Shown here one piece after another: positions 39,214 through 40,233 of a stretch of DNA of 64,000 bases. Under the pieces are notes generated by a model. It made no database searches. It was not told the origin of the DNA and saw only the letters and a program-made list of their open reading frames with translations. The position numbers were made by a program, and so were the translations under genes. Origin of the DNA: the human T2T-CHM13v2.0 reference genome, Homo sapiens; the NCBI RefSeq assembly GCF_009914755.1, contig NC_060930.1, one strand, 5' to 3'. Position 1 is the first letter of the stretch, and every line of letters begins with the position of its first letter.

Positions 39214-40233
39214 GGCTGGGCATGGTGGCTCACACCTATAATCCCAGCATTTTGGGAGGCCCAGGCAGGTGGATCACTTGAGCCCAGGAGTTTGAGACCA
39301 GCCTGGGCAACATGGTGAAACCCTGTCTCTACAAAAAAAAAAAAAAAAATTGGCTGGGCACGATGGCTCATGCCTGTAATCCCAGCACTTTGGGAGGCTG
39401 AGGCTGGTGGACCATGAGGTCAGGAGTTCGAGATCAGCCTGGCCAACATGGTGAAACCTGGTCTCTACTAAAACTACAAAAATTAGCTGGGCGTGGTGGC
39501 GCACGCCTGTAGTCCCAGTTGGGACTGGGGCTAGTCCTTTGGTCTTATATACTATATTATGGCTTCTTTAAAGAAGATTCATACATGATTTGATATACAT
39601 TCTGAGAAGATTATCACAATCAAGCTAATTAGCATATCCAACACCTCCCATAGTTACTTTTTTTATGTATGTGTATGGTGGAAACACTTCAGATGTATTC
39701 TCTTAACAAATTTCATACATTATCATGTATAGTTACCAGGCTGTATGTTAGATCCCCCAGAATGTATTCCTACTGCATAACTGAAACTGTATACCCTTTG
39801 ACCAACATCTCCTATTTCTCCCACCTCCCACTCCAGCCCCTGGTAACACCACTGTACTCTCTGTAGAAGTTCAACTTTTAAAAAATTAGCCAGGCAAGGT
39901 GGTGGGTGCCTGTAATTCCAGCTACGTGGGAGGCTGAGGCAGGAGAATCACTTGAACCCGGGAAGCGGAGGTTGCAGTGAGCTGAGATCATAACATTCCA
40001 CTCCAGCCTGGGTGACAGTGCAAGCCCCCCGTCTCAAAAAAAAAAAAAAAGATTAGCTGGGCTTGGTGGGCCACACATGTAGTCCCAAGTACTCAGGAGG
40101 CTGAGGTGAGAGGATCGTTGGAGCCCCGGAAGTCAAGGCTGCAGTAAGCCATGATTGTGCCACTGCCCTCCAGACTAAGCGACAGAATGAGACCTTGTCT
40201 CAAATAAAAAAAAAAAAGAAAGAAAGAAAGAAA
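39214..40233 (+). mobile_element. Nested composite: AluJ (left arm 39214-39350, right arm 40051-40233) containing AluS (39352-40050), which contains a non-Alu insert (39519-39880)
   Basis: Order of monomers read directly from the sequence; the insert matches 41053-41116 and 36746-36961. Confidence 0.88.

What the first reader, a model, noticed from the sequence alone, without database searches (positions are those of the whole stretch)
39352..40050. Two-donor mosaic insertion inside a nested Alu (donors 1.5 kb downstream and 2.8 kb upstream)
Seen: the AluS stops at cctgtagtcccag (39518). Then 39520-39583 copies unique sequence 41053-41116. Then 39584-39887 copies the L1M fragment at 36746-36961, sharing its private features (aacaaatttcatacattatca, gatcccccagaatgtattcc). 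An Alu right arm then restarts through the overlap aaaaatt. The first junction is a hairpin (agtccca-gt-tgggact), and tggga is also shared between the Alu core and the donor. Inference: at least three successive template switches (FoSTeS/MMBIR-like or iterative synthesis-dependent end joining) fixed in the germline.
Basis: partly seen in the sequence, partly recalled or inferred. Interest (0 to 1): 0.8.

Follow-up and report, generated by a model that had tools for sequence, protein, structure and literature searches.

The report
Two nearby DNA pieces patched between Alus
An old break in Alu-rich human DNA was mended by copying two short pieces from 1.5 kb and 2.8 kb away, which is a well-documented kind of repair scar rather than a new phenomenon.

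Summary
Window 39520-39583 copies unique DNA at 41053-41116, which has no other match in the genome. Window 39584-39887 copies the L1 segment at 36748-36961. It is 95% identical to that segment and 71-76% to the other 38 scored L1 copies, and the two are sisters at 100/100 support.

Both copies are in direct orientation and carry no added poly-A. Junction microhomologies are about 2, 1 and 7 nt. The two pieces have statistically equal divergence, so one event fits.

The copy keeps 86 bp of genuine L1 sequence that the donor has since lost.

This matches "repair-mediated duplication", the capture of nearby DNA at a break. Pace et al. 2009 (PMC2671141) list 824 proximal cases in human. Twenty are two-donor chimeras, five of them with both donors close together.

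The two Alu flanks overlap by 41-42 positions but differ at 10 of 42, like unrelated Alus. The right flank is much more diverged. They are probably two different Alus bridged by the patch, not one Alu carrying a fresh duplication.

A 7+7 bp inverted repeat at the first junction is unexplained. No primate orthologs could be examined.

Verdict: real, a new member of a known kind, low to moderate interest.

The parts
39214..39351 (+). Left arm and A-rich linker (A17 then TT) of an old outer Alu that encloses the whole composite
   Evidence: matches the regional Alu consensus from position 1 at 83%. The sequence was read. The label 'AluJ-like' is recalled, not tested.
39352..39518 (+). Alu flank L: Alu consensus positions 1-168, ending abruptly at ...gtagtcccag with no A-tail
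   Evidence: 91% to consensus; non-CpG divergence 6 of 139 and 5 of 14 CpGs retained.
39519..39519 (+). Junction base T at J1. It is either a filler base or a C>T change of a 2-nt 'ct' microhomology shared by the Alu and donor 1
   Evidence: Read directly from the sequence; the choice between the two is inference.
39520..39583 (+). Copy of donor 1 (41053-41116), in direct orientation
39584..39887 (+). Copy of donor 2, an internal L1 segment (36748-36961), in direct orientation. The last 7 nt (aaaaatt) are shared with the Alu linker and form junction J3
39608..39693 (+). 86 bp of L1 sequence kept in the copy but now missing from the donor
   Evidence: collinear with 8 of 8 other L1 copies. One search gives the geometry.
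39881..40050 (+). Alu flank R: Alu consensus positions 128-283 plus an A-tail (40037-40050)
   Evidence: 85% to consensus; non-CpG divergence 18 of 129 and 2 of 14 CpGs retained.
40051..40203 (+). Right arm of the outer old Alu. It begins gattagctggg, so aaa(a/g)att flanks the composite on both sides
41053..41116 (+). Donor 1: single-copy intronic DNA 1.5 kb downstream
   Evidence: only itself and the copy were found in the genome.
36748..36961 (+). Donor 2: part of a longer + strand L1 fragment 2.8 kb upstream. It carries a later 86-bp deletion at about 36771 between imperfect direct repeats (agatgatt / agatgtatt in the copy)
   Evidence: The L1 continues on both sides of the copied part.

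Best explanation
This is a fixed germline scar of imperfect DNA break repair, called a chimeric 'repair-mediated duplication'. A break in a cluster of Alu elements in an NHSL1 intron was mended by copying DNA from two nearby places on the same chromosome. One piece is 64 bp from 1.5 kb downstream. The other is about 300 bp of an old L1 from 2.8 kb upstream.

The copying was synthesis-dependent (SDSA, or serial template switching). A 3' end primed on each donor through a few bases of identity. The new strands were then joined to each other and to the other broken end. The strongest anchor is the 7-nt aaaaatt shared by the L1 donor and the Alu linker.

Shown: both donors, their direction and uniqueness, the absence of added poly-A, the junction identities, and the equal divergence of the two pieces.

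Inferred: that the templates were DNA rather than RNA, and that there was one event.

Less certain sub-claim (about 60:40): the two Alu flanks are two different Alu copies. On this reading the patch replaced roughly 280 bp between them, namely the 3' end and tail of a younger Alu and the first 127 nt of an older one. The alternative is that the patch sits inside one Alu.

Age: from the pairwise divergence of about 4-5%, the event is probably some 15-30 million years old. The calibration is recalled, not computed.
For: Donors:
- Donor 1 is unique in the genome.
- The L1 piece is 95% identical to 36748-36961 and 71-76% to the other 38 scored copies. Forty of 2093 candidates were scored, including the query itself.
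- Copy and donor are sisters at 100/100 support and share private indels.

Direction of copying:
- The L1 donor continues as L1 on both sides, whereas the copy is cut at non-L1 junctions.

One event:
- Divergence is 5/59 for the donor-1 piece and 9/221 for the donor-2 piece, Fisher p=0.18. At non-CpG sites it is 3/59 against 8/221, p=0.70.

No retrotransposition marks on the captured pieces:
- The A-run at J3 is native to both the L1 donor and the Alu.

Precedent (PMC2671141):
- 824 proximal duplications of up to 619 bp interrupt transposable elements in the human genome.
- 20 acceptors are chimeras of two donors, and in 5 the second donor lies within 3.5 kb of the first.
- 0 of 39 inspected proximal cases had a poly-A/T tract.
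- Breakpoints showed 2-9 nt microhomology, filler, deletions or small duplications.

For the two-Alu sub-claim:
- L and R differ at 10 of 42 overlapping positions. Random pairs of 117 regional Alus differ by 9.0 on average, and 3.9% of pairs differ by 4 or fewer.
- L and R differ at both subfamily-variable sites: C,G against G,A.
- Non-CpG divergence is 6/139 for L and 18/129 for R, Fisher p=0.009.
- Only 1 of 116 intact Alus shows as large a right-minus-left gap; 4 of 116 do in either direction.
- Simulating one Alu duplicated at the event gives P(10 or more differences) of 3e-5 at the donors' divergence and 0.003 at 3.5% per lineage.
Against: - No orthologous empty site was seen, so neither the single-event claim nor the pre-event state is directly shown.
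- Microhomology at J1 and J2 is only about 2 nt (after assuming one C>T change) and 1 nt.
- The 7+7 bp inverted repeat at J1 is rarer than chance (73 of 19,978 positions). None of the simple repair geometries I drew explains it.

Against the two-Alu sub-claim:
- One TSD-like aaa(a/g)att and one A-tail frame the whole composite, as expected for a single Alu insertion.
- Two Alus require the younger one's 5' end to sit exactly at the older one's 5' boundary. My own rough estimate, not computed in any call, puts that coincidence at about 1 in 10.
- Six of R's extra changes lie in two clusters, which may overstate its age.
- The implied deletion of about 280 bp (my arithmetic from the consensus coordinates) is larger than the 1-15 nt deletions tabulated in PMC2671141. 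That pipeline, however, only admitted flanks whose consensus end and start lay within 30 bp of each other.
Confidence: 0.78

Rival explanations
1. Same DNA-level capture, but inside ONE nested Alu. The synthesis left the Alu at position 167-168 and re-entered it at position 128 through aaaaatt, creating a 41-bp flanking duplication. This is the return step of an MMBIR/FoSTeS-like event, or repair of a staggered break.
For: - A single TSD-like aaa(a/g)att plus one A-tail frame the composite inside the outer Alu's linker.
- L starts at Alu base 1 and R ends with the tail, as for one insertion.
- Small flanking duplications of 4-21 nt occur at repair-mediated duplications (PMC2671141 Table 1).
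- CpG retention is 5/14 in L and 2/14 in R. I did not test whether that difference is significant.
Against: - The duplicated 42 positions differ at 10 sites, as many as unrelated Alus.
- The expected number is about 2, with P(10 or more)=3e-5. Even at the upper bound of the event age, P=0.003.
- No CpG decay is shared between the two copies (my reading of the three aligned rows printed).
- Both subfamily-variable sites differ.
- R is about 3 times more diverged than L, Fisher p=0.009. Only 1 of 116 intact Alus shows such a gap.
Confidence: 0.3
2. A single L1-driven retrotransposition in which reverse transcriptase switched templates: Alu RNA 3' part, then a local + strand RNA containing the L1 piece, then a local RNA containing donor 1, then a second Alu RNA. 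This would be a chimeric retrocopy.
For: - One TSD-like repeat and one A-tail frame the composite.
- L begins exactly at the Alu 5' end.
- L and R look like two different Alu sequences.
- L is not significantly older than the capture event, p=0.10.
Against: - R is far older than the captured pieces. In the same-age test R holds 18 of 29 events against an expected share of 0.187, p=3e-7.
- Both templates lie within 3 kb in cis.
- The RNAs would have to be + strand, antisense to NHSL1. The gene's strand comes from the hub's annotation.
- There is no added poly-A on the captured pieces.
- In PMC2671141 all 39 inspected proximal duplications lacked retrotransposition marks, whereas 17 of 29 distant ones had them.
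Confidence: 0.06
3. Two or more separate events. The 64-bp and the L1 pieces, or the Alu flank L, were inserted at different times and merely abut.
For: - The point estimates of divergence differ: 8.5% for the donor-1 piece against 4.1% for the L1 piece.
- The locus is an Alu insertion hot spot, with four or five Alu pieces within 1.2 kb.
Against: - The difference is not significant: p=0.18 at all sites and p=0.70 at non-CpG sites.
- The pieces abut with no intervening sequence, and neither has its own TSD or tail.
- Chimeric two-donor captures are an expected outcome of the repair model (PMC2671141).
Confidence: 0.06

Closest known systems
[quoted passage not shown]
   Same: - An insert of 50 bp or more interrupts transposable-element sequence.
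- The donors are on the same chromosome within 5 kb.
- The lengths (64 and 304 bp) are within their range, whose maximum is 619 bp.
- No poly-A is added.
- There is short microhomology at the junctions.
- The acceptor is built from two donors. They report 20 such cases, 5 with the second donor within 3.5 kb of the first.
   Different: - One captured piece is itself a transposable-element fragment. Their pipeline filtered out inserts identified as transposons.
- The flanks end and start 41 consensus positions apart, outside their limit of 30 bp either way. This locus was therefore probably not in their set, but I could not check Table S1.
- The flanks seem to be two different Alus.
- The donors here are 4.3 kb apart, against their range of 289-3,432 bp.
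MMBIR / FoSTeS complex rearrangements (Hastings et al. 2009, PMC2621351; search listing and abstract only)
   Same: Discontinuous templated segments are joined at microhomology, with serial template switches to nearby sequence.
   Different: Those models were framed for kilobase- to megabase-scale copy-number changes arising at collapsed forks. Here the pieces are 64 and 304 bp. Nothing in the sequence tells replication-based switching from two-ended break repair.
Synthesis-dependent microhomology-mediated end joining and Pol-theta-type templated insertions (Yu & McVey 2010, PMC2943611; search listing and abstract only)
   Same: Repair synthesis is primed at microhomology and leaves templated inserts. 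Inverted (snap-back) templating could account for the palindromic first junction.
   Different: By my recollection, typical templated inserts are a few to tens of nt, copied from within tens of bp of the break. Here they are 64-304 bp from 1.5-2.8 kb away.
L1-mediated chimeric retrocopies and endonuclease-independent or non-classical L1/Alu insertions at breaks (PMC1920257 seen in the search listing only; the Alu counterpart is recalled)
   Same: - Flank L is a 3'-truncated Alu without an A-tail, which is the hallmark of non-classical insertion.
- The whole block has one TSD-like repeat and one tail.
   Different: - Flank R is much older than the captured pieces.
- The donors are local and carry no added poly-A.
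- I found no complementary microhomology between the junction and Alu RNA when reading the sequence by hand.

Membership tests
Repair-mediated duplication (Pace et al. 2009) | An insert of at least 50 bp interrupts annotated transposable-element sequence | tested here: met
   A 368-bp non-Alu insert (39520-39887) lies between Alu consensus 1-168 and 128-283.
Repair-mediated duplication (Pace et al. 2009) | The insert has exactly one other, parental, copy in the genome | tested here: met
   Donor 1: only itself and the copy were found. The L1 piece has one 95% sister, while the other 38 scored copies are 71-76% (40 of 2093 candidates scored). The L1 piece would fail their literal filter, because weaker family members exist.
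Repair-mediated duplication (Pace et al. 2009) | The donor lies within 5 kb on the same chromosome (proximal class) | tested here: met
   The donors are 1.5 kb downstream and 2.8 kb upstream.
Repair-mediated duplication (Pace et al. 2009) | No poly-A/T tract is added at an end of the insert | tested here: met
   The A-run at 39880-39885 is present in the L1 donor and in the Alu linker.
Repair-mediated duplication (Pace et al. 2009) | Breakpoints show microhomology, filler, deletion or a small duplication | tested here: met
   J3 has 7 nt (aaaaatt). J2 has 1 nt. J1 has 2 nt or a 1-nt filler.
Repair-mediated duplication (Pace et al. 2009) | Pipeline rule: both flanks bear the same repeat name, and the consensus end of flank A is within 30 bp either way of the start of flank B | tested here: not met
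   Flank L ends at 168 and flank R starts at 128, a difference of -41. This is a rule of their search, not of the mechanism. Repeat names could not be assigned here.
Repair-mediated duplication (Pace et al. 2009) | An empty pre-insertion site exists in an outgroup primate | not testable with these tools
L1 reverse-transcriptase template-switch chimera | All parts arrived in one retrotransposition event, so all have the same age | tested here: not met
   In the same-age test, flank R against the captured pieces gives p=3e-7. Flank L gives p=0.10.
L1 reverse-transcriptase template-switch chimera | One target-site duplication and a 3' A-tail frame the whole chimera | tested here: met
   aaa(a/g)att lies on both sides, and an A-tail lies after flank R.
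MMBIR / FoSTeS | Origin at a collapsed or stalled replication fork (one-ended break) | not testable with these tools
   The sequence alone cannot separate this from two-ended break repair.

The most novel reading that the evidence does not exclude
The whole block 39352-40050 is the product of one retrotransposition-linked repair event that used four templates. At an L1-endonuclease nick in an Alu linker, the polymerase copied local nascent + strand RNAs (or DNA) from two sites and then an Alu RNA back to its 5' end. This would explain the single TSD and tail frame, the tail-less 3'-truncated Alu L whose age is compatible with the event (p=0.10), and the unrelated Alu halves. In the same spirit, the palindromic first junction would record a short inverted self-templated priming step that created the 8-nt identity then used to enter donor 1.
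Probability: 0.08. Interest if true: 0.6.

Novelty: new member of a known kind. Interest (0 to 1): 0.25.

Why it matters
On its own it matters little. It is one more fixed, apparently neutral, intronic repair scar of a kind catalogued by the hundred in the human genome.

It has three modest uses:
1. It is a clean worked example of a two-donor capture with both donors local. Published screens that discard TE-derived inserts and flanks offset by more than 30 bp would probably miss it. Such screens therefore under-count these events.
2. The copy preserves 86 bp that the donor L1 later lost. Captured copies can thus serve as dated snapshots of their donors.
3. The mismatch between the two Alu flanks shows that an 'interrupted Alu' can in fact be a bridge between two Alus with loss of the DNA between them. 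That would change how such events are scored, as insertion against deletion-plus-insertion.

Tried and rejected
1. Retrocopy of a back-spliced or circular RNA. The order of the pieces is non-collinear, as in a back-splice. Donor 1 is followed by gt, but donor 2 is preceded by aa, not ag, and the reverse strand gives no GT/AG either (my reading). Rejected.

2. A third, Alu, DNA donor for flank L or flank R.
- In the window, the best matches to L are 90.5% or lower, and to R 88% or lower.
- In the genome, the best matches are 93% for L (40 of 3330 candidates scored) and 93% for R (40 of 1519 scored).
- The top 12 hits for L and 16 hits for R were fetched. Each shares only scattered, mutually exclusive subsets of the private changes.
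- No donor was found. The searches were not exhaustive.

3. Linkage of L-type left arms with R-type right arms across the genome. The right arms of the 12 L-relatives and the left arms of the 16 R-relatives rank unremarkably among 117 regional Alus. Uninformative.

4. Priming of an Alu RNA by the junction strand (non-classical Alu insertion). I found no complementary microhomology by hand. Not supported.

5. Using the inverted repeat at J1 as the invasion homology. It would give an inverted copy of the DNA to the left of 41053, which is not what is seen.

8. No structure, protein or complex tools were relevant. No primate orthologs or population data were available.

Full report
**What is there**

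The window is an intron of NHSL1 on human chr6 (hub annotation). Reading 38900-40400 and matching it to an Alu consensus gives the following layout. The consensus was built here from 31 Alus of the window.

| Window position | Element |
|---|---|
| 39077-39199 | Young 5'-truncated Alu with a 14-bp target-site duplication |
| 39214-39351 | Left arm and A-rich linker of an old outer Alu |
| 39352-39518 | Alu flank L, consensus positions 1-168 |
| 39520-39887 | 368 bp of non-Alu DNA, after a junction base at 39519 |
| 39881-40050 | Alu flank R, consensus 128-283, plus an A-tail |
| 40051-40203 | Right arm of the outer Alu |

The motif aaa(a/g)att lies on both sides of the block 39352-40050.

**The two donors**

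A blastn of the region against the window and global alignments confirm both copies.
- 39520-39583 copies 41053-41116, with 5 mismatches in 59 aligned core positions.
- 39584-39887 copies the L1 at 36748-36961, with 9 mismatches in 221 aligned positions plus small indels.
- Both copies are in direct orientation.

Donor 1 is single-copy. A whole-genome search with 41000-41200 returned only itself and the copy, with 2 candidates and 2 scored.

For the L1 piece, the whole-genome search scored 40 of 2093 candidates.
- The query itself scored 100% and the 36.7-kb copy 95%.
- The other 38 scored 71-76%.

In an alignment with the first 8 other copies, copy and donor share private features. These include a 12-nt gap, an extra C in gatcccccag, and the gaatgtattcc version. 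In a maximum-likelihood tree of the 10 sequences they are sisters at 100/100 support on a stem of 0.16.

**Direction and order of events**

The 36.7-kb L1 continues as L1 on both sides of the copied part. The copy is cut at non-L1 junctions. The 36.7-kb element is therefore the parent.

The copy is 304 bp and the donor 214 bp. The copy holds 86 bp (39608-39693) that align with all 8 other L1 copies but are absent from the donor. The donor thus lost them later. The deletion lies between the imperfect direct repeats agatgatt and agatgtatt (the latter as seen in the copy). The copy is in this sense a snapshot of the donor's earlier state.

**Junctions (read directly from the sequence)**

- J1: the Alu ends ...gtagtcccag, then comes t, then tgggact... 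The Alu would continue ct and the donor is preceded by c. So there is either a 2-nt 'ct' microhomology with one later C>T change, or a 1-nt filler.
- J2: ...gattcata | catgattt..., with 1 nt shared. A 6-nt atttga is shared by both donors a few bases further on, but the product does not use it.
- J3: the 7-nt aaaaatt is shared by the L1 donor and the Alu linker.

No poly-A was added to either captured piece.

**One event, and its age**

The divergence of the two pieces from their donors is not distinguishable.
- All sites: 5/59 against 9/221, Fisher p=0.18.
- Non-CpG sites: 3/59 against 8/221, p=0.70.

The pooled figures are 11 non-CpG mismatches in 280 sites (3.9%) and 14 mismatches in 280 overall (5%). 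By recalled calibration this lies between human-orangutan and human-macaque divergence. The event is therefore perhaps 15-30 million years old. This is an inference; orthologs would settle it.

**Mechanism**

The features match 'repair-mediated duplication'. Of the paper (PMC2671141) I read the abstract, sections 4, 6, 7 and 14, and term passages from sections 10, 17, 21, 24 and 26. The relevant findings are these.
- A screen for transposable elements interrupted by 50 bp or more of DNA with a single other copy found 1,136 cases in human.
- In 824 of them the donor lay within 5 kb. The mean length was 162 bp and the maximum 619 bp.
- Twenty acceptors were chimeras of two donors. In five, the second donor lay 289-3,432 bp from the first.
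- None of 39 inspected proximal cases had a poly-A/T tract, whereas 17 of 29 distant ones did.
- Breakpoints showed 2-9 nt microhomology, 1-68 nt filler, 1-15 nt deletions or 4-21 nt duplications.

Their model is SDSA. Each 3' end of a break may invade a different ectopic template, copy it, and then anneal. Applied to this locus:
- The left end would enter donor 1.
- The right end, whose tail ends ...aattttt, would enter the L1 at aaaaatt.
- The two new strands would be joined at J2.

A one-ended serial version (Alu, then donor 1, then donor 2, then back through aaaaatt) gives the same product. I cannot tell these apart, nor tell either from a replication-based MMBIR/FoSTeS switch.

**Why this locus may be missing from that catalogue**

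Their pipeline removed inserts recognised as transposons. It also required the consensus end of one flank to lie within 30 bp of the start of the other. Here one piece is L1-derived and the offset is -41. I could not open their Table S1, so whether the locus is listed remains open.

**The Alu flanks are probably not one Alu**

L stops at consensus 168 and R restarts at 128, so 41-42 positions are present twice. If the repair had duplicated them, the two copies should differ about as little as the captured pieces differ from their donors. They do not.
- They differ at 10 of 42 positions. Random pairs among 117 Alus from 264 kb around the window differ by 9.0 on average, and only 3.9% of pairs differ by 4 or fewer.
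- L and R differ at both subfamily-variable sites: C,G against G,A.
- They share no decayed CpG (my reading of the three aligned rows printed).
- A simple simulation of 'one Alu duplicated at the event' expects 2.0 differences, with P(10 or more)=3e-5. At 3.5% per lineage, about the upper bound, P=0.003. Only a duplication as old as the Alu itself gives about 10.
- Non-CpG divergence from the regional consensus is 6/139 for L and 18/129 for R, Fisher p=0.009.
- Among 116 intact Alus, left-part and right-part divergence go together. Only 1 of 116 has as large a right-minus-left gap, and 4 of 116 do in either direction. In the first sample of 31, the correlation was r=0.79-0.85 and 0 of 31 reached the gap.
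- R is clearly older than the capture (p=3e-7). L is not significantly older (p=0.10).

The best-fitting history has three steps.
1. An older Alu (R) sat in the outer Alu's linker.
2. A younger Alu (L) came to lie just 5' of it.
3. A break between them lost about 280 bp and was bridged by the two captured pieces.

The lost DNA would be the younger Alu's 3' end and tail, the A-tract, and the older Alu's first 127 nt. The figure of about 280 bp is my arithmetic from the consensus coordinates, not a computed result.

Evidence against this history:
- One TSD-like repeat and one tail frame the whole block. The younger Alu's 5' end must therefore coincide with the older one's 5' boundary. I rate that coincidence at about 1 in 10; this is my own rough estimate, not computed in any call.
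- Six of R's changes sit in two clusters.

I put the two-Alu reading at about 60:40 over the single-Alu reading. A variant in which L itself was brought in at the event cannot be excluded.

**Rivals**

Reverse-transcriptase template switching would explain the single frame and the unrelated Alu halves. Several points count against it.
- It requires all parts to have the same age, which fails for R.
- It needs + strand RNAs antisense to NHSL1.
- It has to explain why both templates lie within 3 kb.

A back-spliced RNA retrocopy lacks splice-site dinucleotides. Separate insertions are not indicated. No third, Alu, donor was found in the window or among the scored genome hits. Those searches scored only 40 candidates each.

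**Unexplained**

The first junction reads as a 7+7 bp inverted repeat with a 2-nt spacer. It would be 8+8 with no spacer if the t was once c. Among 19,978 possible donor starts within about 5 kb on both strands, 73 (0.37%) would give an inverted repeat of 7 bp or more. This is a post hoc observation but not trivial.

Inverted complementarity cannot prime a direct copy in the simple models. One untested idea is a short inverted self-templated or trans-templated step that first added the 8 nt, which then served as direct microhomology to donor 1.

**Verdict**

- The 'single nested Alu' premise is doubtful.
- The event belongs to a known and common class of germline repair scar.
- Interest is low to moderate.

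Noticed in passing
window 39064-39213: A young-looking 5'-truncated Alu (consensus 178-283, 93% identical, at 39077-39182, plus an A-rich tail) is flanked by a perfect 14-bp target-site duplication, aaataccaccacca. It sits in what looks like the outer Alu's own target-site duplication (compare aaacaccacaac at about 40231). There are thus four or five Alu pieces within 1.2 kb.
   Followed up: partly
window 36765-36778, compared with 39602-39697: The donor L1 carries an 86-bp deletion between imperfect direct repeats (agatgatt and agatgtatt as kept in the copy). This is a typical slippage or microhomology deletion, and the captured copy dates it to after the capture.
   Followed up: yes
window 39552-39554, compared with 41085-41087: Three adjacent mismatches (cta against tcg) make up 3 of the 5 differences between the donor-1 copy and its donor. 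This may be one multi-nucleotide change and includes the donor's only CpG.
   Followed up: no
window 41035-41060, minus strand: Read in reverse complement, the DNA just upstream of donor 1 and its first bases loosely resembles the Alu motif around ...tcccag...tttgg.agg. It could be chance or a very degraded antisense Alu-like fragment. It might bear on why the Alu end met this donor. Judged by eye only.
   Followed up: no
window 39940-40036 (flank R): The extra substitutions of the right Alu flank are concentrated in two short clusters, at about 39990-40003 and 40019-40031. Each cluster mixes CpG and non-CpG changes, and the second also has a 1-nt insertion. The cause is unknown.
   Followed up: partly
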